The position numbers and the translations under genes are program-made. Below are positions 9,885 through 62,403 of a DNA stretch of 64,000 nucleotides, piece by piece. Location of the stretch: positions 414,400 to 478,399 of the forward strand of contig NMRA01000151.1 of assembly GCA_002633005.1 (NCBI GenBank), read 5' to 3'. Under the pieces are notes generated by a model, which saw nothing but the letters and a program-made list of their open reading frames with translations, ran no database searches and had not been told where the DNA came from. The stretch is from Phoronis australis. Lineage: Eukaryota > Animalia > Phoronida. Position 1 is the first letter of the stretch, and the number at the start of each line of letters is the position of its first letter.

Positions 9885-10199
9885 AGGGTCCTAATCAACT
9901 TCAAATGAACGGAGCCGGGGGAACATACAGCCAGAAAACAGCTACATTTGCAACTTATGAGAGGTCTTCCAGCACACTCACATGTACAACGGATGTAACT
10001 TTCCCTAGCGCATATTTCACCGAAAGTGCAGAATTTGCAATGAGAAAACGTCCCAAAGAACACACTGGGGACACCTACAAGAAGACCTATATGTTCACGG
10101 CACAACGATCCATGAATAAGAAGAACTTCTCCTGCACTGCTACCAACCAATGGCAACCGACAAATAAAAAAACAAAAGACGTCACTGTCGTCGTTTATT
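9885..10199 (+). CDS. Ig-like domain exon A (315 nt)
   Basis: Acceptor ttacag at 9879-9884 and donor GTACGT at 10200. xGPNQLQM...LTCTTDVTFPSA...FTAQRSMNKKNFSCTATN...VTVVVY. Confidence 0.85.
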
Positions 10200-11946
10200 G
10201 TACGTATTGTTAACTGACACACTAAACCAATGCAATATAATGGTGTACAATTTTGTCAGCTGAAACGTTCTCGATTTACCTTTCTGTCTTTGGAGTTTTC
10301 AGCAGGCAATCCTTGTCGAATTCACGTCCATTGTGCGTTTAGCCATATGTAAACGTGCGTGTGGTGCCCCGAATGTCTTCGTAAGGTATTTCTCCGTGGC
10401 TTGAGAGCTTACTAATGGTGTGCGTTGGAGTGGGTTTCAGTCTTTAAAAGGTGTGACAAGTTATATTTATGGCTGGGAATTTCAAGCAAACAGTAAGTTG
10501 GTGCGTTTATGTTATTTGAAGTAACATAAGTCAGTTCACAGTTTTAGGACTTGTAAAAATAATAACTCGGCGATTATCATTCATTTTACATTAACTTTTA
10601 GTGTTTTCAGATAGTTGTTTTCTTTACTCGTTTAAGTAGAATTTCCACATTGTAAAAGCACTTCTCTTGCTAGATACATTATATTCCTTATTTACATATC
10701 CATTTGTTCTAAGTTTGTAATTGTTCATTGCAGAAACACGAATCAGTGATGCCAAGTTTTAAAAGTAAAACTGAAGTTTTTACTCACGTTTTATTTTGAC
10801 GATAACCAACCAAAAGAGCGACATATGACTCTCAAATTGAAGAAATTGAATCAGTTACCTTTGCCTTCAAAAAGTGACGATGAGATCCCAACATCCAAGC
10901 CCCAACAGAACGATCATATACTACAAATCCAGGCATATGAAAAGATCATAGACGATGAAACCGTCATTGAAGAAAAGCTAGAAGATCAAAGAGCTCTTAT
11001 AAAGCCAACAAACACTGATATTATGTAATAGTATTCTGCATCTGTGGTGACTTTTCGAATTTTAGGCCATACTTCCAAATATCACATCTTTCACGTCCGT
11101 GGCTACATCAGGAAGGCACTGGAAAGTATTGGCCAAAACACAGTACACAGTAGCAAATTTTGTGTAAGTAATGTTCACTAGTATCTGTCGTCAATGAGAC
11201 CAGTTGCGTGTCCATGATCAGTGGAGGGCGACTATTTCTCTTATCAATGAGTTTCTGGAACACTGGAAATTATTTAGAACATTTTACGACTAGAAAAGTT
11301 TAAAGTCCTTGATGCAAACACGACAAAGCTCAGACATACAAAAATATCAGTTAAAACATCAATTAACATACATATTTCTTTTCGTGAGTATGACTGGATC
11401 CTCAAACAGACATGCATAATAATTGTAACTACATCCTAATGCAGACATGCATAATTGTAATATACATGTTTAGCAAACTTGGACAAGTGATCAAGGGCCG
11501 AGGTTTTGTTGTCAGATGGTATATTTGATATATTAGAAGCCAAGTAAAAGAATTGTGGTAAAATTTCTTTAATTTTGAGATTGTGTAAACCTATTTTGCA
11601 CCTTTCCACGTTGCGAGAATGGTGATTTTTGTTTATTGTTTATCAGCAGATTCCACAAGACCACCCATCACATTCGAGTAAGCTGTGAAATATAGACCAC
11701 TGTCATCAACCAAATTTGCACTAAAAGACAAGAATTGCACTTGTTGCATGCTATTACACAAAAAACCAATATCATAAGCAGAACTTAAATATGGCATTAC
11801 TTGTGTTTTCTCCTCACTCACATGGGCACATTTGCAATAATTATATCATCACGTTTCTGTCCAGTTGGTAAATGTCAACTACCTTCAGAGCCATTTACAA
11901 CCTACATGAGATGCAAATTTATATGTTACTTTTGGTTAGTCAAACG

Positions 11947-12090
11947 CATGGGCGGCGCAGCACTAAAAATGTGGGTGCTAAAGCCCCCTCAGCCCCCTGT
12001 GGTGCACCGCCTATAGACCATGTACGGCGTATCACTGAAAAAATTAGGGGGGGATATAGAACCCCAGCCTCTTATGATGCACCGCCCATG
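11947..12090. mobile_element. MITE with CATG termini and 5-bp TSD
   Basis: TIRs catgggcggcgca / tgcaccgcccatg. AAACG is repeated at 11942-11946 and 12091-12095. Confidence 0.8.
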
Positions 12091-13348
12091 AAACGTGATT
12101 GATTTTCTAATAGCGACTGCTGGGCAGTGATTTGTGAAATAGATTCTGCAGAAACAAGTGGACTGGAAAATTTTGTTTCACTGAGCCTGTATGTTTATCA
12201 TTAATTCTTGATTCAAAGTTGTCAACAGAAACTTGTTCTATAACCATTGCCTTTAATTGTTATACCTGTTGACAACATGTAGCACACCAGTGAAAAACTA
12301 ATATTTATTAAATAAAACATGTTCAACAACAGAATTTAATTTTAAAGCTGCTATGCAGCCGCTGTATTTGCCACAATTAACAGCTGGGACTTTTCACATG
12401 TTATGGAATTAGCCGGAACTTGTTTCTTACTCAAAGTAAGAAAGGATGACTACGTATCATTCACAAGTTTCGAGCCTTGCAGCTTTAGGTCAGTCGAAGC
12501 AGTCTCCAATTGCTAATGGGTGGCTGTTGGAGGGCGATTTGGAATGTCGCTGGACGACTCTGCCATTCATCCTATAACGTGTCATGATGGGCGTTAGCTG
12601 CAAACATAATGCAAAAAAGTGTTTGTAGTACAAAAATGTAGATGCCATAATCTGAATTGTCACTGTCGATATTGTGTAAACACAGTGTCTCGAGAAACAT
12701 TTTTCCTGACATTGATGATTATAAAACGAATGAACTTGATAAACATAATAAGCATTTTGTTTTGATGAAGAACTTTAAAACTTTAACCTTGTGGAGATTA
12801 TTGACACCATTGTATGGATTGTGATTTTAGTGGAATTGTCATGAGTATGTTCAGTGTGTCGCCCACTTGACATTTCTCTGCAATGAGGACAATGAGAATT
12901 ATGACAGTAGTGAAAGTAATTACGATGAATTTGTGACAAAACATTGGAAATAAAAGTTATTCGTATTTGAACTATATATCAAGCTTTCATTCAGTTGCAA
13001 ATTGTCAAACATATTATAAGCACAGACTATAGAAGAATGTTCTTCAGCCATCAGGAGGCACTGCACTTATTTTTAGAACAATTGTTACTGAGTCAAATTA
13101 TTCAGTTTTTACTCAATGTTCTTGATTTTTAAAGAATGGTTTTCTGTATCTAGGTTTGCTCAATGTCAAATGTCTAGGCATCTATGGTCGTTTTCTCCTT
13201 TTGGTGTACTTTATGATACTTGTTCTAAGAAATTTTCAAAGTAATTCATTTTGATATTCTTACATAGTCGTCTGTAGGTTGTAGGTCTATTTCTTCTTTC
13301 ATTGGTAGTTTCTTGTTAATGTTTGTAAATTTTTTTGAAACAGGCATT

Positions 13349-13350
<2 letters not shown>

Positions 13351-13410
<60 letters not shown>
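13351..13410. repeat. (AC)n microsatellite, about 30 units
   Basis: Perfect AC run. Confidence 0.98.
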
Positions 13411-13414
<4 letters not shown>

Positions 13415-16400: not shown

Positions 16401-17574
16401 GGATAGAATGGATTTTCAGTGCCAACGTTTAACCTGCACAACATCAAATGCATTTCACTGCAGTAATTCTCAACATAACATAAATGTAAATGCAAAAAAA
16501 GGTTGCTGCATGACATGCAATTAATCGAAATATGCTTGAAGCCATGGACACATGTATTTTAATTGCGTAGTCAATTCCCACCACTCATTCTACCGATGAC
16601 CCAGAAAAAAATGCAACAGAGGGTTTTATTGCATAAATCGTATCTTCTCACAACACTTAGTGTAAGAAAAGTCTACCGGAATGGGAGTGGCGGAAGTTGG
16701 TTTTTCAAGATGGCGGACAAAATGGCCGCCAGATTTGCAGATGACCATTTAACTCGAGAGTGGAATATGATAGAGTAAAAATCAAAAAGATTTACCTATC
16801 TTTTGTGGGTCAACAGATCCATTTGAGATGGTTTTGCATGGCTGCGGTGACACTCTCCACCATTTTCCAAAACGACCACCAAAACTACTTCGAGTGGCAC
16901 AACTTAGCATGAACAGATGAGTGTGTTGTGTTGATTTAAACATTGCATTATAGGATTCTGAGTCGGCTAATCCATTAAGACTCATTGCGTTTGGCTTACT
17001 TCTGCCATTTTTTAAGATGGTTACCAAGTAGTTGCTTCGCGTAAGAACTTCAGATGTGAGAGACACATCATCTTCACAGATTTCATAACCTGATTTTTTC
17101 AGGTCAGTACGTCCATAAAAATATTTTTGTCTGGCTCTGATGAGTGCAACAACCATTTTCAAGATTGTTAAAGGAATAATAACTTATTTGGGTGAAAAAC
17201 GTCAGGTTCGCCTGGACTGAATGATCATTCTCATGAAAAAATGCTGGATCGAAAATAGTTCTCTGCGATTAATTTACTGATCTGCTTTCCACACCAGTTG
17301 ACCGTCTGTGTCACATCCAGTTATTTGTAAATGTTTGTGAATGCAGCAACAGTTGAGACAGGAGAAAGGTTTAGCAAGGTACGTTTATCAAGTTAAACAG
17401 TTTGTAAGCGCTTGTATAGCTACCACAAGGCCTCTCTTTAGTGATGTTACAAGTCTGTCCGAAGCAGTATTTATAATGGGGCTAGTCGGAAAATCTACAA
17501 TAACTAGAGGGCGCGCGTGTACTAGTGGTAATAGATTAACAGCCTCAATTTCGCGAGCCCTTTAAATACATGGT

Positions 17575-17662
17575 GAAATGGCTTACAGTCGTGCCAACTG
17601 AATCTGAGATTGCGTGAAAAGGGTGCTTCTATGAGAGGAAGTAAGCACGACCTTATGCAAAG
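17575..17662 (+). pseudogene. SAP-domain exon remnant, probably a transposon accessory gene
   Basis: KWLTVV/QLNLRLREKGASMRGSKHDLMQR (one frameshift), followed by the donor GTAAGG. Confidence 0.5.
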
Positions 17663-20600
17663 GTAAGGTTTGTGATTATTTAAACGATTATTCCATGATT
17701 ATTCTACCGATGCCTGTTAACTGGGGTACTCGCCGATATTTACTTCGCGGCAGTCGCCAGTCGGGTTAATCTTTGCTTGGTGTGATATGTGATACGATAC
17801 TTGACGTAGCAATCGGGATCTTTTCGTACATCGAAGCATTATTATTTTTTGGAATGATTTTTAATAGTTTATCAGTGACACCAATCAATGCTGAATGTTT
17901 ATGCTGTCAACTCGATACAGGTTAATGAGTTAAGATTACAATCCAAGCCCAATGGCAAAGGGTTCATGACAAATACCCATTGCATTAGACTATTTGTTTA
18001 CTCCCTATCATATGTCTTCTGGAAATCTATTACACGTTGAAATGGAAATCTATCACATCTGTTTTCACGTAACCTTTGGTTTTTAGGTTTGAGGGCTTGC
18101 ACCCGGCCGTGCAGAGGAGATTCTGCACCGTCCCTAAATTGACAAAACTTGGTTTTTAGCATTTGACTGCAGCTAACCAACAAGATCTTCCCATCCAGTG
18201 CAGATATGTTGTCAAAGCCTACTTTCAATATTGGATACAACGAACAAAGCCTTTGAAAAGAAACAGTTATTTTTAAAGAAAGTTATGCAAGTCATTTTGT
18301 TAATTTACTTATTCAGGTCCTTAGCTGGGGATTGGTATGGTGGGCTTGGGATTGTAATATTTGGTACAACTGAATGTGTGGAAATAACAGGTAATACATG
18401 TTTGGGGAAAAGAGCATGGTGAGGTAATTCTTAACCTTCATGAAGTCCCTTCAAGTTGATTTGATGAGACTGTTTTGCTACTTGTATCAATTGTAAACCC
18501 ATGAAAATATATTACATTTTCTGAGTTCACAACTCATGTCTTGAAATGGTGCAAGTCGTTATAAATTCAAATGACAGCCATTTTCTGTGAAAATTGCATT
18601 TTTGATGGTGCCTTACGATTTGTAATTACTCTTAAACAACAGAAAGATTATCCATCATTTTTAAATGACCCGAGTCGTCATATCTTCTACTAGAAAAAAT
18701 TCAAAGTCTGAGAAACGGTTCCCTCAACCTTAGACTACAAGTATGCTTGGCAGACCCATGAACCTGTAATCGGAGTTTAAAAAGGCTTCTAAATGGCTAA
18801 CAAAGGTTTGAAGTTGTCTCAAAAAACTTGTATATTTTGCAGACAAGTGATGCGTTTAAAGAATTGCTATGCCTAGGAATAAAAAATAAAGATACAGTAT
18901 TACGCAATACTTATTATATAACCCTTGTTTTCTGAAAATAGTAATTATTTAATTTTATGTGAAACTGTAGAGCAGTCACCATATATTTTTGAAAAACAGG
19001 GATAATATTTTTGACCCAATCTGGAGTACATAATTATTCATATTTCAATATTTGTTCCAGGTTCAGTGACATTTTAAGGCCACTTCAAGCTGTATCATAG
19101 ACAAACTTTGTTACTCCGTTCTCTTCCCACAGCACTTCCACACACCAGCAGTGCTGCATGGCACAATGTAGAAGTCAGTGGCCCTGGAGAAATGTGAATC
19201 GCAGTACTAAGTTACCATAAGACAATGTGCCAGTGGACTGTTTGTGTATTCAGACGAACTATATCTGAGTCTGCTACACAAGTAAGCCTTGTTGGTGAGG
19301 ATGCCCTTTTATAGGCAATGAGTCATGTGTGGGCAATAGCTTATTTCCTTTCCTGGAAGAAACATGAGGGACTGAAGCTAAAGAAGACCTTGTGACACTC
19401 TGGTCTAGTTCAGGGTCTGATTTTGGGCTCAAAACGATTCAAGTGATATGCTACTGTGTTTACCTTCAAGGGTCTAATTGTGGATGTCATTGAGGTTGAA
19501 TGAGGAAACATGAAAGAAAGCCACGTGTCGAAACTGGACCTTTTTACAGGCGCTTCTATAAGCCATTGAAACTAGATCCCAGTGAAATGAAAGCCAAAAG
19601 CTGAGTGACATTAATTTTTCCTTTCAGAAGAAAGGCTTTACACTATTGGTAAAAACTTTTCAAATTGGTACAGATTATGGGGAAATGACATTCAGTGACT
19701 GCATCGATTGTCTTATTGTATGTTTTCAATTGTAGCTAGCTGGATAATAATCTGCTGAGCACAAGATTCGAGAATAAACAATTATCAGTGTATTTAAAAA
19801 CAAATGGCAAACTGAAAAAGCACAGAAAGAAACAGCATTGCGACGGAGTCCATAATCACGCATATCAAGTGCTAAATTTTTGAATTGCGTTCAATTCTCT
19901 CAGGTTATTGCTGAAGAATGCTTTTCACTTTGTCCAAAGGTAAAATAGATGGTTTCAGTTGTTTTCTCTCACCTGTAACAGAATAGCCGGAAAATATTAG
20001 CAAATTGTAAAAGAAATTACAAGACAAAACTACTTACGTAAGGCAGAACATACTTAACGTTTCATCTTCATGTTTATGTGTAGAAACTAATAACCTTTGT
20101 ACCCAAGTCTTATTTAATATCTGAATTAAAATATGTGAAACAGGCTAAAAGTGATTTAACAATGTGTATTTTTCATAACACTTAAAATTAGCTTTTGATC
20201 TCAAGAAGTAAAATTCATTCTATGTGTCAATTTTTTTCCAATGCAATGTTACGACATTTACTGAATTAAGGCTTATTTATGTTAATTCGATAACTGATCT
20301 GGTAGTCCTGGTGGTGGGGTCCGCGATAAAATAAGGAAACTCACTCATCTAGAGAATTTTATTGGAAACAGCATAGTTTTGAAGAGAAACTGCTGTGAAA
20401 AAGTCACCCTTGACTTCTGTGCATCACGTACCACTCACCTCTTATTTTGGGAGCACTCCCACCCAGGACAATATCAGTGAATATGTGTTGCTAGCCTACC
20501 CGGCATCGGGTGAGTTTCCTAAAAGAAACGCTTAGTTCCACTCAATAAACCTGTTATTTAGTGGGGTAACTGGTGGGGATAACATCACCGAACGATGTTG

Positions 20601-20989
20601 ATAGAAACTGATTGCTAAAATCTTACCAAGTAATGTTGTGTAGTCTACTAATGGTCATAGAGCACACACGGGGTTTCAGCATCCACACACTTTTTTGTCA
20701 GTTAGTTGACCCTTTTCACCGAAATTGTCCACGAATATAGTAACCTTAGGTCTTTTGGGAATTTGTGGCCACCTGTCGAAGACTTGCACCAGGGAAATTA
20801 GCAGTAATAAGGCTTAGCGCGACGACGTATTTTGGTAATTCCATCTTTTACCAGTTGTTTACATGCAGACAGCCACGCATGCGCAATTCAATCACCACTA
20901 GTACAACAGCGACACCGCGAGGAGAATTCTCCGAATAGCCCCATTCTCAAACAGTGATCAAAATCTATATATTTGCACAACTATTCTCT

Positions 20990-23790
20990 GTCAACTGAGA
21001 ATGAATTGCTGCAGCTTATACATGTGCCACGTCATTTACAACATGCAACGGTGCACGCCAATCCTAACTTCTCGTAATTACATCTGTTGGGGCTGCAGTT
21101 GGTCTTGCACGAGCATCTTCTTTCAACTGCTTCTCTGGTGCTGATGGCTGGTCCATCGTCATGGGAATGACCGAATTTTCCAGCATCTATCTCCAATCCA
21201 ACGGATGTTGGTCACTGCCACGGAAACTTGACCACCCTTGCACTTGATAATATGACCTGGCAGCATGGAATTGAGGTGCTAAAGCAGTTGTTGGTAATGG
21301 GTGTATTTGGACTGGCGCTATGTTTGATGACACCTTTTCCACAAATCGCCTGTCTCGCAAGTCATCCAAATTTCCTGAGTCAGTACCTCCATGGAACATG
21401 GACACAACTTCAAATGTCACAGTTTTTTGAATGGGAAAGCCTTGTCAATACCGAACAGCCGTGACATTGTATCACAACCACCTATTGCATGCGCAAATGC
21501 CAAAAGCACATAAGTCTCGGGACCAAGAGACAACTGTAGTTTCTTGATGTCCCAGGCTCTCCTCTTGCTTTGATGACTATTGTCGCCATTTCATGAACAT
21601 TGGAAATTGTTGTGAAGTAGCATGATAACAAAAGAACCAACAAGTCTGTATCGTCTGCAATGAAGGTAGTAGGACATTGTGCTGCTTTCTTTACTGCAGT
21701 TTCTACAATTAAAACATCTGCGTCACCTTCAGTTTGTACCACTGTGCAACCAGGATTTATTTTGTAGCAAACTAGACATGAAATGCTGTTTTTTGGTGTT
21801 TGCCAAAAAATGCTCCGTCTTTGGCTTGACTACCTTGTCGCTATTGAAGTGAACTTCAGCTCCAACCACCCCACCCAGTCTTCAAACATGGGAGACATCT
21901 TAAGTTGATGGGGCACCTCCATAGCCATAAAAACAACAGTAGGTTGGTTGTACTTGCTGACGTAATCTACATAAACTCTACCAACTGACTGAAACGGTTC
22001 ACCTCTAGGCCATGCAATACGGTGAAAGAGAGAACCGTCCTCGATTACCTGCATCACCGAGTTTTATGGAAATTGGTAAGCCTCATTGGACCAGAGTGCA
22101 TCTGCTAATATTGATATGTTAGCGACTCAGGGAAGACCAGATGTATCAAAAAGAACGGGGAAACCAACACACAGAGCTCAAACTTCAAAAGGCTTGATAA
22201 ACTTTCAATGTTTTGGTTTGCAGCTGTCAGTTATCACTGAAATAGCATTTGTGGATTCACTTGTTTAAAATCAGTATTGGCAACATAAACTGATGGATTT
22301 GTCACAGCCACAACCTCGTGTTTCTTTCTGAATGGGAAGTCTTTCACACTCAGCCTCTTCATAGACATGAGAATCGCCTTCCCAATTTCTCTGGCATTTT
22401 CGGTATTGACGCATGTACCTGCAGTCACACCAATGGCGATGTTCTGAAATTTCCCCCCTTTCAAATGGGTTTCTGTTGTGGAGGAATTCAACAAGGTTGA
22501 GGATGTCTTTGTCATCTACGACTGTCTTTTCTTGGTACATTCTTTATGTTGTTCACTTGTTTCTCAACTCAAGTTTGCCGCAGTCTGCATGGCCACATTT
22601 ATACTTGAGCACGCAGCTAGTGTGCACGCAGCGTATCTTCCAATCCTCTTAGTTTAATGGTTTTCATGGGCGTTTGTTCAATTACAAGGTCAGATGACAA
22701 GCATGCCCAGAATCTGTCACTTCGTCTTATGGCATGGTGACCGTTAACAAAGGTGCTGTAGACATCTGGATGGATGTCTTTGAGTTGCTGCATCTGCTGC
22801 AAGTATATGTATGCAGATTTCGCATAAGAGTTGTTACCAGCAGCTGCAAAGTAAGGCGACATTTCAAAAACTGCTTCGAGGTGAATTTCCCTATCTGCTT
22901 TTAGAAAACGTCGAAGGATGTCAACCATCTTCACATACTGTAGCTTAAGACTGCTGGTTTGACTTTACAAGGACAAGTTTGAGTTATGCGATCCGATTTT
23001 TTATGGATTACTACAAGAGACTCTGACGAGCATACATCACCGCACACAGACGTCATGCCAGCAATACGTTCATCATACAGCCTCAGACCAGCTTTCAAAT
23101 CATCATCAAGCATATCAGTGGTCACTGATTCTGCTGATGAACCATTCTCTGTCACTGCGAATTCTGAAGACCTGTACTCTGATTCAGTCGTGTTTGACTA
23201 TTCCAGTGGCAGTATGTCGGAAGCCAGACGTGAACTCTTGTGAGGGTATTGCGCTGTAATCCAAGGCTCAGAATCGGAAGACTGCCTTTGCATTGCATGT
23301 CCCAGTGTATACATCTGTAGTTACTGTATGCGATCAGTTGGGATGTCTGAAGAATCTGTCTCCATATATTCTGAAGAGCCAACATTTTTGTACAAGCGTT
23401 GAATTGCTCCGTCTCTTGGCTCGGAATCTGTGTGTTCTCTGTTTGTGACATTCAGGACTCATGGAATTTCTGAAGAAGTGAAACTTCTTTCTTCAAATCA
23501 TGAAGTTGTTGGTTCTGGATTGGCGTTATTTGACCTGTCAATATTTCGAAGTGGGATGCTGAATTGTCTGGCTGTTATGCCAGCACTCATTGCTGAGTCT
23601 ACCAACATATGCTCAATCACTGCTCTACGCCTTTTCCATTTAACATGTGAATCTCACCTTGAAAACCCGACTTCCGCCACTCCAATTTCGATAGACTTTT
23701 TCTGGCACCAATGGATGTTTGATGATACCATTTATTCAAAAAAAATCTTACATTTTTCTAGGTTGGGCTCTCTGGAGTCCTAGAATGACT
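20990..23790 (-). pseudogene. Decayed Academ-type (AcademX-like) transposase
   Basis: Colinear fragments PYFAAAGNNSYAKSAYIYLQ..HHAIRRSDRFWACLSSDLVIEQ, VIEDGSLFHRIAW, EGDADVLIV..ADDTDLLVLLL and GCDTMSRLFGIDK (XPG/H3TH-like), then FHAARSYYQVQGW and a C-terminal Cys cluster CSCKTNC..C....LACTVAC. Many frameshifts. Confidence 0.75.
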
Positions 23791-31253: not shown

Positions 31254-31601
31254 TTGGTCCCACCACTATGGAGATTCTTACTAATGGAGTCCATGGCAGA
31301 TTAGAAGAAAATGCAGGACAGAAACAATACTTTGTGAAGTTAGGAAACAAGTATACTGTGACGTGTAACACGGATAACGTTAACGAACACGCAGAGATAC
31401 TCTGGACTACCACAATAACAGGGACACAAGCACCTGCGAGAAAGTCGACCAAAATGACTGAGCACCACTCATGGACGTTTTCCAGTTTCTTCATATTTGT
31501 TGCCGCTAAAGAACATAACCAACAGTCTCTAAAATGTGAAGGGCAGAACACAAAACATTCTGCTTTCCGGGCTAGCAATAGTCTCGAAGTCTATGTGACG
31601 T
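31254..31601 (+). CDS. Ig-like domain exon B (348 nt)
   Basis: Acceptor taacag and donor GTGAGT. xGPTTMEI...VTCNTDNVNEHAEILW...FVAAKEHNQQSLKCEGQN...LEVYVT. Confidence 0.9.
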
Positions 31602-34604: not shown

Positions 34605-34931
34605 TTGGGCCCGATGAGCTTTCATTTGCTTCGGAAAATGGTTTCTTTAATCGTACGACAGGCGTGTATAACGTACGGGAGGAGACTACAACAAACTTGC
34701 AATGTTCTACAGACAAAGTTTCGTCAGGAGTTCGCATGAGCATTTTGGCCAAATTCGCCAACAAATCAATGGAAAGTCGTAACTCAGATATATATGACGA
34801 GAAAGAACATACATTGGACTTTCACTTTACTGCAAAACGGTCGTTCAACAAGGACATTCTCAAGTGCAAAGCTACAAATTTTGTCGACTCGGACTTTAGT
34901 GTGTCTAAAAACATTACACTTGTGGTGCTAT
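34605..34931 (+). CDS. Ig-like domain exon C (327 nt)
   Basis: Acceptor ttttctttcag and donor GTAAGT. xGPDELSF...LQCSTDKV...FTAKRSFNKDILKCKATN...ITLVVL. Confidence 0.9.
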
Positions 34932-35534: not shown

Positions 35535-35846
35535 ACGGTCCGAAAAAAGTGAAGATAGGTGGACGGAATGGTGAAGTTTCCACCCGATATGTGAGCAGTC
35601 ATAGCGTCGAAACTTTTCTCCTGTGTACAACCGACAGTGTCAATCCGTCAGGGCAAATACGCTGGAGAACTACAATACCATCCACTGCCGCCATGGTCAG
35701 CTGTAATGATACGCAATCATGTTTTGCAAGTAGCATAACCTTCACACCCTCAGAAAAATACCATTCGCAGAAGATAGCGTGTGTAGCCGAAAACTCATTG
35801 GATGAGACCATTAGTGAATCCAAAGAGATTGTACTTGCTGTTTCAA
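35535..35846 (+). CDS. Ig-like domain exon D (312 nt)
   Basis: Acceptor ttctttcttcgaag and donor GTAAGT. xGPKKVKI...LCTTDSVNPSGQIRW...FTPSEKYHSQKIACVAEN...IVLAVS. Confidence 0.88.
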
Positions 35847-37432: not shown

Positions 37433-37744
37433 ATGGACCAAAACGTCTCACTTTAAGATTATTGGGTCAAGAGGAACCACTCAACAGCATGTTGTTTACA
37501 TACGCGGGCCAAGATCATGAGATATCTTGCGAGACCGATCACGTATTTCCTGACGCCTCGGTGTCTTTTGACAAACTGCAAGGTATGACAGAGAATCGAC
37601 AGCAAACAGTGGGATCTAAGCGTCGTCGCGTTATCCTTTTCAACGTCCAAGCGTCGTACAATAAACAAACCTTGACCTGTAGAGCTTCCAACAATCTCAC
37701 TCCCCAAGATGTGATAAGCAAAGACATAATATTTGACGTTATTT
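37433..37744 (+). CDS. Ig-like domain exon E (312 nt)
   Basis: Acceptor ttcttcag and donor GTAAGT. xGPKRLTL...ISCETDHVFPDASVSF...YNKQTLTCRASN...IIFDVI. Confidence 0.9.
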
Positions 37745-38115: not shown

Positions 38116-38442
38116 ATGGTCCCACAAGTGTGAGCTACTCATCAACCACGGGTCAACTAAGCCAGGATCGCAGAAAGATTTTTCTCTTGTCAGAGTCGCC
38201 CCACAACGTCACGTGTGGAACCGATTCTGTACGACATCAAGCCACTGTCAAGTTTACGGCAGAATTTGGTGTTGCCACGAAAACTTGGTCACGTTCGGTC
38301 GGAGGCGAAAGCGCAATTTATAAGGCCGACTTCAGCTTTCAAGCAGAAAGGAGACTAAATGGATTTGTTTTGAAGTGTTCTGCGGAAAACAATGGGACAT
38401 CAACGTTGGAAACTTCTAAGAACTTGGAGTTTGTCGTTATAT
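38116..38442 (+). CDS. Ig-like domain exon F (327 nt)
   Basis: Acceptor ttgcag and donor GTAGGT. xGPTSVSY...VTCGTDSV...FQAERRLNGFVLKCSAEN...LEFVVI. Confidence 0.88.
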
Positions 38443-41042: not shown

Positions 41043-41381
41043 TCGGCCCAACAACACTTACTATCTCTGACAAATATGGCGACGTGATTTCGAACTCTTA
41101 CGCCTTGTTAGTTCACGGGAATGTCACAGTACTATCGTGTGTAACTGATACTTCCAACCCCGGAGTCAACTTGAACTTCACGACTGACTTTAGATGCACC
41201 CCACCAAGATGCTCGAAAGCGACTGGACAGACTGATGGGAATCACAAAGGAAAGCTCTACCGATCATACTTGACGTATACGCCACTAGAGGCGGATCATG
41301 GGAAGACTGTGACGTGTGAGGGGAGAAACATAATGACGGCAGCTATTAATTCTACCAAATCTATAATTCTCGCTGTTATGA
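41043..41381 (+). CDS. Ig-like domain exon G (339 nt)
   Basis: Acceptor ttctgtttcag and donor GTAAGT. xGPTTLTI...LSCVTDTSNPGVNLNF...LTYTPLEADHGKTVTCEGRN...IILAVM, the most canonical C2-set_2 signature of the set. Confidence 0.92.
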
Positions 41382-44460: not shown

Positions 44461-44521
44461 CTGGGAGTCGAAACACAGGTCTGTACATTGTCAGTCTAGT
44501 GCTCTTACCATTGAGCTACGT
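44461..44521 (-). repeat. tRNA-derived SINE head or tRNA pseudogene fragment
   Basis: Reverse complement has an A box TAGCTCAATGGTAAGAGC and a B box GTTTCGACTCCC, but the stems are broken. Confidence 0.55.
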
Positions 44522-45034: not shown

Positions 45035-45277
45035 CATGCGCGCACCCGGGGGGGGGGGCGGCTCGGGGGATCGAACGAAGTGGACAAAAAGGTCCGCCTC
45101 GGAGAAACAAAAAAGTCCGAGAAAACGAAACAAAAGTCTACTAACAAGACGCAAACGCATAGTTCACAGTTCTGAACGTTGGTACCGTTTTTTTTAGTGC
45201 TCCCGACTTTTTGTCAGGAAAAGGTCCTCAACCACAGAAATTCGAACCCCCCATTTTCAAGGCTGGGTGCGCGCATG
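45035..45277. mobile_element. MITE with CATG termini and 5-bp TSD
   Basis: TIRs catgcgcgcaccc / gggtgcgcgcatg with TAATA on both flanks. A second copy lies at about 57776-58007. Confidence 0.8.
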
Positions 45278-45502
45278 TAATACCTATTTATGTTACCGTG
45301 TGAGCCTAACAATTGAATCTTTAATAATGCTTTGTGTATTATGTTGCTTTGACTTAATATCAATGTGACCAGGAGTGAAACGATTTTCTGTATTTCATTG
45401 AATTCAGGACGACTAAAATTATCCAAAAGGATTGGAACTCTTTTAGGTCAGCTGTTTTTTGCCACCATAAGTTTCTAACTGAGATACTGATTAATCTTTC
45501 AG

Positions 45503-45823
45503 ACGGACCTTTAACAGTTTATCTTGAAACCAAAAGCTTTGCCGTTTACCAAAACTCTACCACCAATACAGTCAACGTCATCGAGGCGAAGAGTTATACA
45601 TTTAATTGCACGACGGGCCACACATTTCCGGGTGCAGTTATCAACTTCACTCAGCATTCAGAATTGACAGTTGGCCAGACACGAAAAGTCGGAAAAGCTT
45701 TCTTCCGCAACTTTACCTTTATTGCACACAGGAGGTTGAACGACGAAACCTTTGTATGTACAGCAACAAACAATCTTTCAAGGAATAACCCGGTGTCTAT
45801 TGAGATGACATTTGATGTCTCTT
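45503..45823 (+). CDS. Ig-like domain exon H (321 nt)
   Basis: Acceptor tctttcag and donor GTAAGT. xGPLTVYL...FNCTTGHTFPGAVINF...FIAHRRLNDETFVCTATN...MTFDVS. Confidence 0.9.
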
Positions 45824-45997
45824 GTAAGTTGTCCAACATCATAAAATATATGCAATGTGTGTAGATATTCAAAATACGTTAACCCCTTTCATTACTTGCA
45901 AATTGAAACTGGTCTTGTGTCGTAAAAATCCTGTTTGTTTATTTTTTCTGTGTGGGTTCTGACATTTGCCAAAAAAAGTTCTACGTTTCCGTTTCAG

Positions 45998-46342
45998 TTG
46001 GACCAATCACTGCGTCTATAGTAGACGTTATCCCTTTAGACGGTGGTTACTTAAGAAAAGAGCAACGTGGCGTTTACACTGTTCGGTCTGGATTCAATTA
46101 CACCGTGAAGTGTGTCACAGACAACGTCTTCCCCGATGCAGACTTTATTTGGACGCCAAATATTTTTTTGGTTGGCCCTTCTTCGGTGGAGTCTGCCGAT
46201 CTACACCGAGGTCACAAATACAGCACTGTGGGAACCTTCATGGCGACGCCTTATATAAACAAGAAAGTTATCAAGTGCACAGCGACGAACAGAGACAGTT
46301 CTGATAAAAAGGCATCAGCGTCCGCTATTCTACACGTCGTGT
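45998..46342 (+). CDS. Ig-like domain exon I (345 nt)
   Basis: Acceptor tttccgtttcag and donor GTAAGT. xGPITASI...VKCVTDNVFPDADFIW...FMATPYINKKVIKCTATN...ILHVV. Confidence 0.9.
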
Positions 46343-47659
46343 GTAAGTTAATGACTTGTTGAGTGTTCTGCGGCGACTGATGTCACGCAACTATTGATTG
46401 CTTCTCTGTTATTCGAAGGATACAGGTTTACTTGCTTTGCTTGATGTAGACGACCCTTTCTTTGGACGCCTACGTGTGATAAATTGAGCTTCCTCACAGT
46501 CACATCATCTTCATATTCTCTCGAGAAGTTGCCGTTTTCATGTCTTGTTACTCTACCCGTCGTGTTATTATCAGGTTTTTATCATTTTACTCTGCGCCTA
46601 CCAGCGCAGAATCTTGTTATTTTTTGGATTTTTATCTTATCATTACTCTGCGAAACAACTTCAAACCCACATATCTGATTGGTACATGCAATTGAGTTCC
46701 AATTCTAAAGTTTCAGGTCATTTGGTGCCAACATGGGGTCGTTAGGTGCATGTTCCTTCTTAAATAAAACACCTATTTTGAAGTTGCAACAGTTAGACGA
46801 CTCTGATTCTCAGCAGTAAACACACTTTTAATGAACTTTGCAATAAATCCACTAGAAAGGCACCAGAAAGGGACAACTAGTGCAAAGGTCATCTATTTTT
46901 CAAAATGTTATTTCTCCTACATTTTTCAAGGAATTCTCTTCAATTTCAGCAAACAGGTGTTACCTTACATGTAATGAGGAATGGTACTTTACTAAGCAAT
47001 AGCGAATGTGCGAACCCAACGCTCATGCCCCACACCCGTTCCTATCTATTGCATTCTGGGATAGTATGTATGCCTAGCAACAGCGCGAGAGTTTGTACAC
47101 GGAAGAGATTATAGCAGCTGATTATGAGCATAATGTCACCCGGGCCCGGTCTCCTACTCAGACTCGAATCATACTCAAACTCACACTTCATACTCAACTC
47201 GAGTACAGACTCAGCTTTGGTGTATTCAATGTCATACTCGAAATATCTTTACTCGAAATTTCGAGCACCGTACTCAAGTCTCGAGTATAGACCTAATAGC
47301 GGATTTGTAGCGCAAACGAACTACGCATTGCGCATGTGCGAGTTACTTCCTGCGCGAAGGCTCATGGGATAGCTTGTGGTCAGGCATGTCTTGAGCAGGC
47401 TGGATAGTGTGTGCATTTGGAGTGATTTACAAACTAAAAACCATGTTTCATTTTTTTTTGCTTTTGCTTTATAATACCAAGCAAGTCCTCTCTCTCGTTT
47501 GTAAACACAGCGTAGCTATGATCAGTGACCGTGCGACCGAGGGCACGCATGTCGTCATGTTCAGTATTGGGGCTATCGACGTTTCGAAATCTCCTCCGGT
47601 TTCAGACAAGTTGAGAGTTCTTGGGTTGATTAACTTTTGTAGCTTTCGCCGTGGATATG

Positions 47660-48690
47660 CTAGAGACGTTAATTTTAAGAGGAAACTCGGAATGTTGTTC
47701 TCATACGTCTTTTTTCCACCAGGAAAATGTTCGCTGCACACACGATGGCCCCTAGGCAATTACATCGCACTGGATGCCGCAGGCATTCAGGGGTGATAGT
47801 AGGCCTACAGCGTCACAAAAAGTTACTCATTTCAAAATACAGCAAATAAAATCAAATGAACCATATAGGAACACGGAGTTATAATTAACACATACCACGA
47901 CAATTTAGTCAGCAAAACTTGAACAAATCGATGAAAATCTGTCGCGGTTTGCTCGAGTTTCTCTCAGTTACCGGGTGCCATTTTGAGGAAGTTACGTGAA
48001 ATTACGCATGTTGACGAATAAAAAGTCCAAGGGACACACATCTCACAAGTTTTACCCGATACCTTATGCTACTTTACAAGTGTCGCGCGCTAGCGTCACG
48101 GGCTAGCGTCACGCGCTTCGCTCAGTCTCGCGCTAACCTTTGCCTAACTCACGTGATTCAGTTGACATGCTTTGTGGTTATCGCGCACGCGGTGATAAAA
48201 TTAACGGCAACCAAAAAGTGGAGTTGTAATTCTCAACTTAATTCTCAGAGCTAAGCTTCATCAAAGAGATGTATAGAAGTAGAAAGGGCCAATGATGAAA
48301 GTAAGCGTTTTTTTAAATGATAGTTTTAAAAGTAGAATGCATTTTGACCAGGTGAAAACTCGAAATCGGTAACCCAAATCCGGTCACGGCCCTTTTAAAA
48401 TACACTGAAGTAACGAAATGAGTACAGAAAGCGAATGGAAGTATTGTAGCCCCTAAATGGCCAACCGAGGGGCTACGTGTTGCCTACTAGATGGCCCCAC
48501 GTTGGTTTGAATGCGAAAAGTAAATCTCCCCTTACTCCCAGCTCTCCTAATGTTGTTTATCCATTTTTCACGAAGTTCTTGGTTTGCAGGGAACACATAA
48601 AAACTCAGATTTTTATCTCTCTTCTTGTTTTTGAAGCAGCCAGGAACACAACAAGTGTATCGGCGGTAAGTTTTCTTCGCGCTCATACCG
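47660..48690 (-). pseudogene. THAP domain split by an insertion
   Basis: YTCCVPGCFKNKKRDKNLSFYVFPANQELREKWINNIRR...FKPTWGH joins RVCSEHFPGGKKTYENNIPS, giving a complete C2CH signature. Confidence 0.85.
47753..48489. mobile_element. 737-bp insertion with TAG...CTA ends and a 9-bp TSD
   Basis: GATGGCCCC at 47744-47752 and 48490-48498. Short imperfect TIR taggcaa / ttgccta. Confidence 0.75.
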
Positions 48691-48846
48691 CGTATTATGC
48701 TTGTTACTATGGCCGCTTTCGGAATCCTGACCACAGCACCCACAATGCACCATTTTAACCTAATTTCAATATGGCGTCGCTGCAAATCCGATATTCACGC
48801 CGACAGAAGGCGGGATTCCAAAACGAGGCTAGCTGCGATAGCTCTG

Positions 48847-52915: not shown

Positions 52916-55658
52916 TAAAATAACTTTATTGACCGTTTCTGTGCTAAACATTTGTTACAACAACACCCGGCAACACTGCACACAATTGGTTGTCAAGCGA
53001 TAGAGGCATTCATTTCCCATAATGCAACTGCGGCGGCAAATTAAACTATGGCGGATTTGCACATTCGCTATTAGGCCATCCAATCAATTAAAATAGGCCA
53101 AATGTCATTCAGTGTTTAGTTAAATTTAAGCTAGACACTTCAAGTTCACAAATCTGATTGATACAATTACCTGAATTATAATTCCAAAACTTTAGGCCTT
53201 TAGGTGCAACCATGGGTCACTAGGTGCATTCCTTTTCTGAAATTTTGACCTATTTATTCAATAGTTATTCTAATGTATCAACATTCATACAGCTGTGATT
53301 CTCACCATTAAACACACTTTTCACGATAATTTTACTAAAAAGGTTCATAATGCACGGGAAATGTTCAATGAATGAAAAGCTCCTCTTATTTTCAAAATGT
53401 TAATTCTTCTACATTTTTCAAGGATTTCTATTCAAAATTCAGCACGCAGGTCATTTAGTGCAGACTTAAATTTTAAACTAGGCACTAAAAATTAACACAG
53501 GTGATTGATGCATGCACTTGAGGTAAAATGCCACCAAGGGGTCATTAAGTGCATTTTGTCCTGAAGTTTGATCTTTTCATTCAACATGTATTCTTATGTG
53601 TCAATAACTGTGATTCTCGCCATTAACCACGCATTTCACGGACTTTGTAGTAATTCCACTAAAAAGGCTTTTAAGGCACTGGAAGGAATCAACTAGTGAA
53701 AAGATCATCTAAATTTCAAAATGTTCTTTCTTCCACTTTTCAAGGACTTCTTTACAATTTCAGCATACAGGTGCAAGAGTACATGCCAGTCAAATACACT
53801 ACTTAAGGCAATCCAATTAAATAAAATAGGTCAAAGGTCACTGAGTGTAAACTTAAATTTTGAGCTAAACACTTCAGATTTACGTATCTGCAATTGACGC
53901 AGGCAATTGAGTTCCGATTCCAGAATTGAATGTCGTTTGGTGCAATCATGAGGTCAAAACGTGCATTGTCCTCTGGAAAATTGACCTTTTCATTCAACAT
54001 CACTGTGATTCTCACCATTAAATACACTTTTCACCGGCTTTACCGTATTTCTACTTAAGTGGCCCATACTGCACCAGAAAGGGTCAAATACTACAAAGGA
54101 TATCTAATTTCGTTCAACATGTCTTGTTTTATACAATTTTTTTTCTACTGTAACAACAGTTAAACATGTGTGATTCAGTATGTTCCATATTTTATTTCCT
54201 TGTAAATTCTGTAATGGTACACAAGCCACCAGACATGTTGTAAACTTTCCAAAAGTCTTAACAGCGCAGAGTCATTCTTTTCACTTTCTGACACTAAGTG
54301 CTCTATTTTTTCTTCTTATTATTATTCGTTTCGAACTTCTCCAGAGCTTAATAATTGTCACACGGTACAACTTTCAACATCCAATATTGTTATAAAATTT
54401 CATACCTTTCACACAGTAGACACCAGAAGTTGTCAATAGGTGCAAAGATCACCTAATTTTCAAAATGTTTTTCTCCTACACTTTTCAAGAAATTCTCTTC
54501 AATTTCAGTGTACAGGTGTAGAACCACACTTCAATAAAACGCATTACTTTTCTAAGCAATCTTCACATTCAATCAGGTGAAAGAGGTCGAAGATCATTGA
54601 GTGCAAACTTAAATTTTGAGCTAGACACTTCAAATTCGCAAATTTCGCTGGTACATGTGATTGAGCTCTAATTCTAAAGTTTCATGTCGTTTGGTACAAC
54701 ATGTGATCGCCAAGTGCACTTATCTTCTTAAATTTTTACTTTTTCATTCAACTTATATTCTGATGTGTCATCAGTTAGGCAATTGTAGTTCTCAGCATTA
54801 AACACACTTTTGAGGACTTTGCAGTAACTATAATGAAAAGGTTGATGGTTCACCAAAAAGAGTCAATTAGAGCTGAGGTCATTTAATTTTCAAAACGTTA
54901 TTTCTCCTACATTTCAAGGAATTGCCTTCAACTTTAACACACATGTAAGTGTACACGTTAATTGAACCCGCTCCTTTACTAAGCAATCAGGCTATCCAAC
55001 CAGATCAAATAGGTGAAAGGTCATTGAGTGCATACTTAAACTTTGAACTAGACAACTCAAATTCATATATCTGATTAGCATGTGTAATTAAGTTCAAGAT
55101 GATCAAGTCATTTGATGCAATCATTGGGTCATTAAATGCATTGCTCTGACTTCTGAAATTTTGACATTTTCATTTGATGTATCTGAGTTAGACAACTGTG
55201 ATTGTCACCATTTCTCACACACTTCACTGACTGCATTACTTTTCTAATTGATCGGGTGACCCAATGAGACTAAATGGGTCAAAGGTCATTGAGTGAAGCT
55301 CATTAACGTACTTCTTTTCTACTTTTACGTACCGCAACCTAGTTTTTTACCATCTCTTCTTTTCACCGAATCCTGTTTCCCATGGAACTATAATGCGATT
55401 TTTCCAAGCATAATTTCCTAGGACACTTTATTCAACGTATATTCTAACGTGTCAACAGTTGAATACTGTGATTCTCAGCAATATCAACGCGTGTATGGAC
55501 TTCATATTTATTTCACTACTGGGGCTCATGATGCACCAGACAAGGTCAAATGATGCAGATGATGTATAATTTTATTTAGAATGTCGTGATTGTCAGTTTC
55601 TGACAATAATCTTTCTCGTTTGCATTCGTATTTATCAGGCGTGCAAATCTGTTTCTAG

Positions 55659-55982
55659 TTGATCTAACACAGAAACTAAAGGTTATTCCAAAAGGCGGGC
55701 AAATAGTTAACCGCAAATACGTTGTTCGCGACGGGTTTCACTATGGTATAGTCTGTTTGACGAATTCAGTGTATCCGGAAGCTATTGTCGAATGGATGGT
55801 GACTGTCGGCAACCAAACTGACAACCAACGAACAAAGGGCAATTACTCTGGTTATATATACAGTCGTAATTTGACATTCATTGCCTCAAAAGAACAGAAT
55901 GGAGAAGATTTCTTATGCAGCGCGCTGATGAAACTGATTCCTGAATTGAAAAAGACTGTGACCCTTACACTGAATGTGACAT
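55659..55982 (+). CDS. Ig-like domain exon J (324 nt; lacks the GP motif)
   Basis: Acceptor gtttctag and donor GTAAGT. xDLTQKLKV...IVCLTNSVYPEAIVEW...FIASKEQNGEDFLCSALM...LTLNVT. Confidence 0.82.
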
Positions 55983-60234: not shown

Positions 60235-60935
60235 TTAATACAACTGTTATCCAATATCGCGCCCAACAGGCACTTCCACAACAACTCAAAGCATGCCAAA
60301 TCTGGGCGTAATTTAAATCACATTTTATGTGCGGCTGCAGCACGTTCATTAGTTAGATATGTTGATGTTGAAACCAATAAATACCATAAATACCTCCATA
60401 TTTTCTTAATTGAATCGGAAATAATCACAGCAAAGCGTAATGACCGGAACGATAAATTGGCGACAACTAATGTGTATGCTCATAAGCCCGTAGACAACAT
60501 CACCACAACGCTTACATCAACTAAAAAGCAACATTATAGGCTGCTTGCGAACTATAAAAATTATTTTAATTAGACCTTTCAATTTTCTTCAATTTGTTCA
60601 AATCATTGTGCTTGTGTATGGATAAATTGTAGTTGATTATTGTAGTGGATTAGAGAGTAAACAATAACATCATAGTGTGAGCTGCTCCACCAGTTTGCTC
60701 TGCTCTACCATTGCTGTTTTTAGTTCTTGTTGTCGTTTTGGTGATGTTGTCAGCGGCCTTATGAGTGTCAGAATAAATATTGATTAAGTAATTAGCACAG
60801 ATAGGTCCATTTTAAGTTTCCCAATTAATGTGCATATGTAGTTTTAAATTATGAGGTCAAACTTGTTGACATGTATTTTAACGTCAAAATCTATTTTAGA
60901 TGATGTTTACTACTTTGGTTCTGGGGTCAAAGCAC

Positions 60936-61558
60936 TGTAGTAGTTCCAGAAGTTTCTGAGAGCAAATTGTAACAGCCAATGATATGATTAGATAGGATCA
61001 TGTGGTTTTTATTAGCCAATCGTTAAATACGTAGATTATCATAATTTGAGCTGAAATTAAAAGGAGAGTCAGATGAGCTATAGTTGTTGAAGCTAAAAGA
61101 CTTGCTACAGTGTACAGAGGAAATTGTACAACAGAGCCATCTCGTGCAAGATTCTAAAAAAGGACCTTGATAAGTGCAAGGGTTAACGAACAGGAAGTTA
61201 ACTAATAGCTTGTCTCTTGCCTATACGTGTTGCCTCACGAGGGACTGTGACCAGTGAGAGGAATCTTGGGTAGAAGATACTGCCTGCAAGTGTTGTGTCA
61301 CCAAGGACTGTGACCAGCAACTACACTGTGGTAACACAGTGTGTGTAGTTCGAAGATTCACCAACAGGACTGTCATCCAACAAGTGAATAGTCCTACAGC
61401 TTGGATAGAAGATAAGATATTTGACTATTTTGGTTGATTGATTGAAGTAATCTTTAAACAGTGTGCTAACGCATATTCTCTTCTTTGTGGTTGGTTACTA
61501 AATTAACAACAGGTTTCACGTGTATAATTAGTAGTTATATAATAAATTAATTACTGCA
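60936..61558 (+). repeat. Possible solo LTR
   Basis: TGTAGTA...TACTGCA ends, internal ggactgtgaccag repeats and AATAAA near the 3' end. No TSD seen. Confidence 0.3.
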
Positions 61559-62043
61559 TTTAATCATCCTCTCTCCATCTACGCATAATCACAACGCATA
61601 GCTACATTTTAAACAAACCCAAGCCAATTTCTGACAATGAGCATGTGCATTAGTTGTTGTCGATTAAATTAGGAAAATCTGGAGGTATTTATGGTCTTTG
61701 TTGGTTTCGATGTCAACAAATAAAACTTGTGAACATACTGCAGTCCCAAATAAAATGTGAGTTAAATTACTCCCAAATTTGACATGGTTTGAGTTATTTC
61801 GGAAGTGCGCGGTGGGCGGCCATATTGGATGGCAGTTGTATATCTTTCTCTTTATTATAGTATATCGTCGAGGGCTGAATAAACGTGTCTTTGTTATGAA
61901 CACACTACCAGTAATTTCCCCTTCAAGAACTCCTTTACTTTGGTGTGTGAATTTCTTTGACGCAAAGATGTTGGGCTCATGCGTTGCAAAGAAATTGTAT
62001 TGTACGCATAGAAGTGAAAGCGTGCCTCTGATTTCTGTTCCAG

Positions 62044-62403
62044 ACGGACCACAAACAATATCTTTTTCCCATGACGGTGCCCCATCTACGTATGTACGTC
62101 ACAAGCTCATGGTTCAAGATGGCAGACAGTATACTGTCTCTTGCACCACAGGGCCACTTAATGCTTGGGCAACTGTTGATTGGACAATTCCAGAACACCT
62201 ACAGCACAAGCAGAGCGACATATTCTCGACCATGCACTTAAATAACAGCGTTTCTCTTAGCCGGTCGTCGACTTTCACAGCTAGACTAATCGAGAATAGA
62301 GCAATTGGTCACCTGGAACATGAATTTCATTTAGTGTGCAAGGCAACCAATATTCATCATAGCGGATATAGAATAGCAAAAGCACTTGTTATAGATGTTG
62401 CTT
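62044..62403 (+). CDS. Ig-like domain exon K (360 nt)
   Basis: Acceptor tttctgttccag and donor GTAAGT. xGPQTISF...VSCTTGPLNAWATVDW...FHLVCKATN...LVIDVA. Confidence 0.9.

What the first reader, a model, noticed from the sequence alone, without database searches (positions are those of the whole stretch)
9885..62403. Array of at least 11 symmetric one-exon-one-Ig cassettes encoding an unrecognised large poly-Ig protein
Seen: 11 exons, all phase 1-1 and multiples of 3, each a single Ig-like domain of the same subtype yet very divergent from one another by eye. All are open despite heavy transposon load in the introns. No V-set, FN3, TM or signal exon is interleaved. Established: nephrin/Kirre/CADM/Dscam-type proteins mix domain types, whereas invertebrate immune and allorecognition loci (Dscam exon arrays, Hydractinia Alr) diversify through Ig exon duplication. 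Inference: this is a lineage-specific expanded Ig receptor or adhesion gene in which any subset of exons can be skipped in frame, so combinatorial isoforms are possible.
Basis: partly seen in the sequence, partly recalled or inferred. Interest (0 to 1): 0.85.

Follow-up and report, generated by a model that had tools for sequence, protein, structure and literature searches.

The report
Long nephrin-like Ig stalk gene
This animal gene carries at least 11 antibody-fold modules in a row, and RNA reads join the first ten in order rather than mix-and-match, so it likely encodes the long stalk of a nephrin-like cell-surface protein rather than a shuffling immune receptor.

Summary
The combinatorial-isoform reading is not supported. 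RNA reads from two samples join all 7 adjacent pairs among exons 2-9 (84 reads). Loose ends add exon 1-2 and exon 9-10. No exon-skipping joint was listed, and only 2 variant sites were listed in 2,631 exon bases. A third sample shows no exon reads. The domains are CD80-like C2-set, closest to the second domains of SYG-2/nephrin and Rst/Neph1. Long C2 runs already exist in database models of sea-star, acorn-worm and mollusc nephrin-like proteins; Patiria XP_038064817 has 10 in a row, then I-set, FN3 and TM. The window's domains are not colinear with these and group together in a tree, so this is probably an independent, old expansion, with a likely three-exon block duplication. Best reading: the constitutively spliced middle of a lineage-specific nephrin-like receptor whose C2 run is a spacer. 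The gene's ends, rare skipping, the exon 10-11 joint and population polymorphism are untested.

The parts
9885..10199 (+). Ig exon e1 (C2-type, lacks the C-strand Trp; begins with AG, so a T-ending upstream exon would create a stop)
   Evidence: AlphaFold pLDDT 90.9, best folds Rst D2 Z 12.5 and SYG-2 D2 Z 11.9; its last 30 bases are the loose end before e2 in 6+4 reads
31254..31601 (+). Ig exon e2
   Evidence: (C2-set_2 E 1.7e-7); joint to e3 in 3+4 reads
34605..34931 (+). Ig exon e3
   Evidence: joint to e4 in 3+2 reads
35535..35846 (+). Ig exon e4 (extra Cys pair)
   Evidence: joint to e5 in 1+10 reads
37433..37744 (+). Ig exon e5
   Evidence: joint to e6 in 9+11 reads
38116..38442 (+). Ig exon e6 (best sibling e3)
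   Evidence: joint to e7 in 10+2 reads (flagged 'between: not known')
41043..41381 (+). Ig exon e7 (extra Cys pair, best sibling e4)
   Evidence: (C2-set_2 E 1.3e-5); joint to e8 in 6+9 reads
45503..45823 (+). Ig exon e8 (e5's best sibling); minor internal donor after 45753 removes 70 nt and shifts the frame to an early stop
   Evidence: joint to e9 in 3+11 reads, internal-donor joint in 3+0 reads
45998..46342 (+). Ig exon e9
   Evidence: AlphaFold pLDDT 82.4, best fold SYG-2 D2 Z 12.1, rmsd 2.1 over 98 residues; loose end behind it is the start of e10 in 4 reads
55659..55982 (+). Ig exon e10
   Evidence: (C2-set_2 E 3.7e-4); its start (28 of 30 letters) seen in the loose end after e9
62044..62403 (+). 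Ig exon e11 (most divergent; its splicing was not tested with reads)
   Evidence: leave-one-out score 34.8 bits

Best explanation
The 11 exons are the middle of one expressed gene, with exons 1-10 spliced in order in the RNA reads, and they likely encode an unbroken run of C2-type Ig domains that would act as a long extracellular spacer of a lineage-specific nephrin/SYG-2-like cell-surface receptor. Shown: the exons, their open frames, the ordered joints of e1-e10, expression in 2 of 3 raw-read RNA samples, and sequence similarity to nephrin-family C2 domains. Predicted: the Ig fold of two domains, 22 N-glycosylation sequons. Inferred from look-alike database proteins: a signal peptide and an N-terminal binding domain upstream of the window, and I-set, FN3, TM and tail exons downstream. 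Inferred from nephrin/Neph biology: recognition sits in the first Ig domain and the C2 run sets reach (about 45-50 nm for 11 domains at a recalled 4-4.5 nm each). The run probably grew by tandem duplication of symmetric exons, including one block of three (e3-e4-e5 to e6-e7-e8), long ago or under weak constraint.
For: Ordered splicing: 7 of 7 adjacent joints among e2-e9, 35+49 reads, all GT..AG at the predicted bases; no skip joint listed; loose ends give e1-e2 and e9-e10. Exon depth 4-14x on every exon tested in both samples. Domain type: Pfam C2-set_2; best PDB sequence hit SYG-2, E 3e-14, on three consecutive domains after its first; best folds SYG-2 D2 and Rst D2, followed by second domains of nectin, Necl-4 and Neph1. 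Look-alikes: Patiria XP_038064817 (10 consecutive matching domains, fn3, TM at 1675), Acanthaster XP_022104107 (8, TM at 1148), Saccoglossus and Mytilus models. Independent expansion: the best sibling outscores the best of 562 database domains for 10 of 11 exons; no diagonal against four reference proteins; the 11 exons form one side of a branch, 96/79 support. Block duplication permutation p 0.011. Nephrin/Kirrel binding is by the first Ig domain only (PMC10084454 passage) and one Nephrin-Neph1 pair spans two membranes (bioRxiv 2023.10.27.564405 passage).
Against: No signal, V-set, FN3 or TM exon is in the window and no genome is held, so the membrane anchor and binding domain are unseen. Similarity to database domains is weak (at most 31 bits per domain), and fold Z-scores to unrelated Ig domains (VEGFR2, TrkC/RPTP-sigma, VCAM-1) lie within about 1 of the top, so 'nephrin-like' names a domain subtype, not proven descent. 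Tree support is short of the tool's star threshold and branches are long; no one-clade test was run. e10 scores higher to a database domain than to a sibling. Low inter-domain identity and loss of the core Trp in 6 of 11 domains could mean diversifying selection rather than a passive spacer. In X1 an out-of-frame donor in e8 had as many reads as the normal e8-e9 joint (3 and 3).
Confidence: 0.65

Rival explanations
1. Fast-evolving immune or self-recognition receptor (Alr- or CEACAM-like in role): spliced in order, but the C2 domains themselves bind ligands and diversify between individuals or paralogs.
For: Domains are only 23% identical to each other and far from all database domains; atypical Ig profile; sample-restricted expression; look-alike genes sit on shared scaffolds in sea stars (3 Patiria and 2 Acanthaster models on one contig each) and 2 of the 19 look-alikes checked carry ITIM-like motifs in their tails.
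Against: Only 2 exonic variant sites listed in 2,631 bases, and exon depth was the same at 90% and 98% likeness, so no allele class 2-10% divergent was seen. Alr proteins have one to three Ig-like domains and tens to hundreds of alleles (PMC9546547 passages). The two look-alikes with the longest C2 runs have short tails without ITIM-like motifs.
Confidence: 0.15
2. Secreted or matrix filament protein without a membrane anchor: a hemicentin-like role built from C2 domains.
For: No TM exon in the window; 22 N-glycosylation sequons; 9 of the 19 look-alike models checked have no TM segment by my scan.
Against: Several of those TM-less models are labelled partial. No I-set hit and no D-x-G-x-Y-x-C motif in any exon, whereas hemicentins are I-set arrays (recalled). 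The closest long-run look-alikes have a TM.
Confidence: 0.1
3. One reading: a cassette array in which subsets of exons are skipped or chosen (Dscam-like) to give many isoforms.
For: All 55 forward exon pairs join in frame without a stop. Depth is lower on e2-e4 (4-8x) than on e5-e9 (8-14x). A skip joint needed 3 reads and a 12% share to be listed, and 10 loose-end rows were not shown.
Against: Every adjacent pair among e2-e9 is joined, which excludes one-of-N choice as defined for Dscam (PMC3236188 passage); no skip joint listed; loose ends before e2 were all e1 (agreement 1.0 and 0.98); no shared DNA motif between exon flanks by blastn.
Confidence: 0.05
4. This is the species' true nephrin ortholog with an enlarged and eroded C2 region.
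For: Best PDB sequence hit is SYG-2; most of the 150 listed database hits have nephrin-like size and runs of up to 5 C2 domains.
Against: Nephrins are described with an invariant nine-Ig plus FNIII architecture (PMC10084454 passage); 11 C2 domains in a row exceeds it. In the tree, three Alosa nephrin domains pair by position with those of a second long TM protein (P0016), while the window's exons pair with none.
Confidence: 0.05

Closest known systems
Sea-star nephrin-like models with long C2 runs: Patiria miniata XP_038064817 ('hemicentin-2-like'), Acanthaster planci XP_022104107 ('syg-2-like')
   Same: Runs of 10 and 8 consecutive domains matching the window's profile, Pfam C2-set_2; top and third hit of 790 at E<=0.001
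   Different: Their runs are younger two-domain repeats (identity up to 56%); the window's run is at least 11 long, at most 31% identical internally, not colinear with them, and its ends are unknown
Nephrin / SYG-2 / Sns and Kirrel / Neph / Rst
   Same: Same C2 domain subtype by sequence and predicted fold
   Different: Nephrin has nine Ig + FNIII and Kirrel five Ig (PMC10084454); here at least 11 C2 in a row with no positional match
Other poly-C2 models: Saccoglossus XP_077865824, Mytilus VDI34182, Glandiceps XP_077985011, Amphiura XP_072029069
   Same: Tandem C2 domains; those of Mytilus and Amphiura, and three of Glandiceps, cluster by protein in the trees, i.e. repeated lineage-specific expansion
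   Different: Shorter runs (up to 5 by my count), with more similar repeats
Pancrustacean Dscam1 exon arrays
   Same: Tandem duplicated Ig-coding exons
   Different: Dscam uses one exon per array (PMC3236188); here neighbours are joined in series
Hydractinia Alr family
   Same: One exon per domain; atypical Ig sequence profile
   Different: Alr has V/I-set domains, 1-3 per protein, and many alleles (PMC9546547); here C2-type, at least 11, with few variants in the samples seen

Membership tests
Dscam-type hypervariable exon array | Mutually exclusive use of one exon per array | tested here: not met
   7 of 7 adjacent joints among e2-e9 present, plus e1-e2 and e9-e10 by loose ends
Dscam-type hypervariable exon array | Shared intronic selector/docking elements before each variable exon (recalled) | tested here: inconclusive
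   blastn of exons with 300-nt flanks found no cross-match at E<=1e-3; short motifs could be missed
Cassette-exon (skipping) isoform diversity | Joints that skip whole exons | tested here: inconclusive
   None listed against 84 adjacent-joint reads, but the listing threshold was 3 reads and 12%, with 1-11 reads per joint and two samples
Nephrin/SYG-2 ortholog | C2-set_2-type Ig domains | tested here: met
Nephrin/SYG-2 ortholog | Nine Ig domains followed by FNIII, in conserved order | tested here: not met
   11 same-type domains in a row; no diagonal against Alosa nephrin domains; no positional pairing in the tree
Nephrin/SYG-2 ortholog | N-terminal adhesion domain, TM helix, cytoplasmic tail | not testable with these tools
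   Outside the window; no genome held
Hemicentin | Tandem I-set domains with the D-x-G-x-Y-x-C motif (recalled) | tested here: not met
   0 of 11 Pfam I-set hits; 0 of 11 with the motif
Hemicentin | N-terminal VWA and C-terminal EGF/fibulin modules (recalled) | not testable with these tools
   Gene ends outside the window
Alr-type allorecognition gene | One to three V/I-set domains | tested here: not met
   At least 11 C2-type domains
Alr-type allorecognition gene | Extreme allelic polymorphism | tested here: inconclusive
   2 exonic variant sites listed in 2,631 bases at depth 4-14 in two samples whose relation to the window's individual is unknown
Nephrin-like poly-C2 receptors of marine invertebrates (database models, not a curated family) | Uninterrupted run of more than five C2-set_2 domains | tested here: met
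Nephrin-like poly-C2 receptors of marine invertebrates (database models, not a curated family) | I-set, optional FN3 and TM downstream of the run | not testable with these tools
   Outside the window

The most novel reading that the evidence does not exclude
Nephrin-derived receptors have repeatedly and independently lengthened their C2 stalk in marine invertebrates, and this gene is an extreme, fast-evolving case: a tissue-restricted receptor with a stalk of 50 nm or more whose length is tuned by low-level, tissue-specific exon skipping and whose divergent domains take part in immune or self-recognition.
Probability: 0.1. Interest if true: 0.7.

Novelty: new variant of a known kind. Interest (0 to 1): 0.3.

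Why it matters
Nephrin-family architecture is described as invariant, yet database models and this gene show nephrin-type C2 runs growing independently to 8-11 or more domains in several invertebrate lineages. None of my five literature searches aimed at such paralogs (titles and abstract starts only) turned up a description; subscription journals are not covered. If these runs are rulers of membrane spacing, they are a natural length series for testing that idea. The exciting version (Dscam-like diversity) is not what the reads show, so the interest is modest.

Tried and rejected
Whole-genome look-up: none held. The run search listed no indexed RNA holder; three raw-read runs came by species label. 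The first read laying was swamped by repeat reads and hid 35 joints; the 98% laying resolved them. X4 contigs showed no piece on the exons among the 8 rows listed (85 not shown). Word-index homolog searches with the exon alignment found 1 weak hit among 7,991 longer candidates and 0 of 267 similar-length candidates: weak evidence that no close relative is stored. Atlas: the exon itself could not be searched; the Patiria look-alike gave generic Ig/FN3 clusters. A tree of the 11 exons alone was unresolved. Rfam: 0 matches. Pfam on 17 intronic ORFs: only THAP above cut-off. Earlier findings: nothing by place, sequence or first word search; 8 partial word matches from other genomes, none bearing on this locus. 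The SYG-1/SYG-2 structure paper was not held, so domain rigidity and length per domain are recalled. The joined 1210-aa product was not searched or folded; a profile of the separate exons was used instead. No complex prediction was run, because no partner is known. The organism's phylum was not established: top hits are sea stars and acorn worms, but per-domain scores are too low to place it.
Full report
Observation. Six-frame translation shows 11 plus-strand open frames with an Ig-like Cys pattern. Each resolves to an AG..GT exon of 312-360 nt, phase 1-1, without stops: 9885-10199, 31254-31601, 34605-34931, 35535-35846, 37433-37744, 38116-38442, 41043-41381, 45503-45823, 45998-46342, 55659-55982 and 62044-62403, together 1210 codons. 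Mean pairwise identity is 23% (15-31%). A filter for splice sites, open frame and Cys spacing finds 11 in the window and 1 in total in 30 shuffles (matrices trained on the same exons). Leave-one-out profiles recover every exon at 35-69 bits, while nothing else in six frames exceeds 7 bits, so no further intact exon of this type lies in the window. My scans found no signal-peptide or TM exon candidate.

Domain type. Pfam C2-set_2 matches 7 of 11 frames at E<0.1, 2 above the cut-off; none matches V-set, I-set or fn3. The exon profile's best PDB sequence hit is C. elegans SYG-2 (E 3e-14). AlphaFold models of e9 (pLDDT 82) and e1 (pLDDT 91) are all-beta sandwiches. Their best matches are SYG-2 D2 (Z 12.1, rmsd 2.1, 98 aligned) and Rst D2 (Z 12.5, rmsd 1.9, 93 aligned); Foldseek agrees for e9. 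Other Ig domains follow within about 1 Z unit, so the fold fixes the subtype only loosely. No exon has the D-x-G-x-Y-x-C motif, and 6 of 11 lack the C-strand Trp that 523 of 562 database domains show by the same pattern. There are 22 N-x-S/T sequons.

Splicing, the decisive test. Three raw-read RNA runs and one contig set of the same species label were available. Laid at 90% likeness on 30900-46700, X1 and X2 cover the exons on the sense strand. X3 has zero depth in the bins of e2-e6 and in the e8/e9 bin 45656-46182, while its repeat-derived reads are comparable; expression is therefore sample-restricted. At 98% likeness on 31150-46450, all 7 adjacent joints appear at the predicted bases, with X1/X2 reads 3/4, 3/2, 1/10, 9/11, 10/2, 6/9 and 3/11 (84 in all). 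No joint skipping a whole exon was listed. The only other joint is an internal donor in e8 (3 reads, X1 only) that removes 70 nt and meets a stop 8 codons later. The loose end before e2 is the last 30 bases of e1 (6+4 reads), across a 21-kb intron; the loose end after e9 is the start of e10 (4 reads, 28 of 30 letters). Limits: 18-19% of each run was read, a joint needed 3 reads and 12% to be listed, 10 loose-end rows were hidden, and e10-e11 was not covered. One-of-N choice is excluded for e2-e9; skipping at up to a few tens of percent at the thinly covered exons is not.

Polymorphism. Two exonic variant sites were listed in 2,631 bases, one synonymous in e2 and one Thr-to-Ile in e8, plus the two-letter difference at the start of e10. 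Exon depth did not fall between the 90% and 98% layings (e5 bin 8.5/8.2 versus 8.8/8.2), so no moderately divergent allele was hidden. This is two samples of unknown relation to the window's individual, not a population test.

Relatives. The profile matched 790 of 1.84 billion representative proteins at E<=0.001; 150 were listed and 20 looked up by name. The top hits are Patiria XP_038064817, a Saccoglossus model, Acanthaster XP_022104107 and a Mytilus model; others include fish nephrins and further acorn-worm, mollusc and brittle-star models. Among the 153 proteins in hand, the longest runs of consecutive matching domains are 10 (Patiria) and 8 (Acanthaster, and an eel protein whose later domains are ordinary Ig). 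The Patiria protein continues with I-set-like domains, fn3 and a TM helix. Among the 28 proteins printed, no single database domain exceeds 31 bits against the profile. For 10 of 11 exons the best sibling outscores the best of 562 database domains; e10 is the exception. Score matrices against four reference proteins show no diagonal. In a 43-row tree (at most 4 domains from each of 9 proteins; two long-branch rows left out) the window's exons form one side of a branch at 96/79 support, in 94% of 200 bootstrap trees; a 49-row quick tree gave 83. Branches are long and no one-clade test was run. The simplest reading is an independent expansion parallel to those in other lineages.

History of the array. 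e3-e6, e4-e7 and e5-e8 are among the five best-scoring of 55 pairs and lie on one diagonal; random exon orders give such a run with p 0.011, or 0.026 by a second statistic (chosen after seeing the pattern). This suggests an old three-exon block duplication. e4 and e7 share an extra Cys pair.

Mechanism. In nephrins and Kirrels the interaction is through the first Ig domains only, and nephrin has nine Ig plus FNIII (PMC10084454, passages seen). One Nephrin-Neph1 pair spans the gap between two membranes (bioRxiv 2023.10.27.564405, passages seen). The window's domains resemble the domains behind that binding tip. I infer a glycosylated spacer of roughly 45-50 nm (length per domain recalled) in a cell-surface receptor whose binding end and anchor lie outside the window. 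This step is untested; recognition by the C2 domains themselves (0.15) or a secreted filament (0.10) remain open.

Comparison. Dscam arrays are defined by one exon per array in each mRNA (PMC3236188, passages seen): not met. Alr genes have one to three Ig-like domains, one exon each, and tens to hundreds of alleles (PMC9546547, passages seen): architecture not met, polymorphism inconclusive. Nephrin orthology and hemicentin membership fail on architecture. Eight paper searches were run; by titles and abstract starts none describes long-C2 nephrin-like paralogs. No supplements were opened, and the SYG-1/SYG-2 structure paper was not held.

Verdict. A real, expressed, well-defined gene segment; a new long and divergent variant of the nephrin-like poly-C2 architecture; not a combinatorial exon array on present evidence. 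Interest 0.3.

Noticed in passing
window 16624-23744: About 7-kb degraded DNA-transposon-like element in intron 1, with inverted ends at 16624-16712 and 23655-23744. A minus-strand ORF piece (22620-22964) has 9 unnamed homologs at 49-63% identity, up to 1,514 aa, with no Pfam family.
   Followed up: partly
window 48456-48794 and 47472-47759 (minus strand): THAP domain (Pfam E 1.4e-9); by eye its second half lies in the other ORF, so it looks like a split THAP-transposon remnant in intron 9.
   Followed up: partly
window 53067-55600 and 46658-47000: Degenerate repeat of roughly 320-430 bp spacing with about 7 units and one outlying copy.
   Followed up: no
window 63100-63998 (minus strand): Stop-riddled frame with a zinc-knuckle-like and RHD-containing stretch; from memory it resembles the C-terminal part of a non-LTR retrotransposon with a restriction-like endonuclease. 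Not tested.
   Followed up: no
window 9885-9887: e1 starts with AG, so a T-ending upstream exon (9 of the 11 here end in T) would form a stop; the upstream partner must end differently.
   Followed up: partly
window 55659-55664: Reads from X1 differ from the window at two adjacent bases at the start of e10, where the conserved Gly-Pro linker is already lost; possibly a second allele.
   Followed up: no
window 1-31253 versus 31254-62403: CpG observed/expected is 0.67-0.78 in the first part and 0.97 in the exon-dense part, which may reflect mosaic methylation.
   Followed up: no
database proteins P0002, P0022, P0023 (Patiria) and P0006, P0019 (Acanthaster): Nephrin-like models with different C2 counts share one scaffold in each sea star, hinting at gene clusters; P0022 has four ITIM-like tail motifs. 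A brittle-star model (P0049) has near-identical C2 repeats plus a SEA domain.
   Followed up: partly
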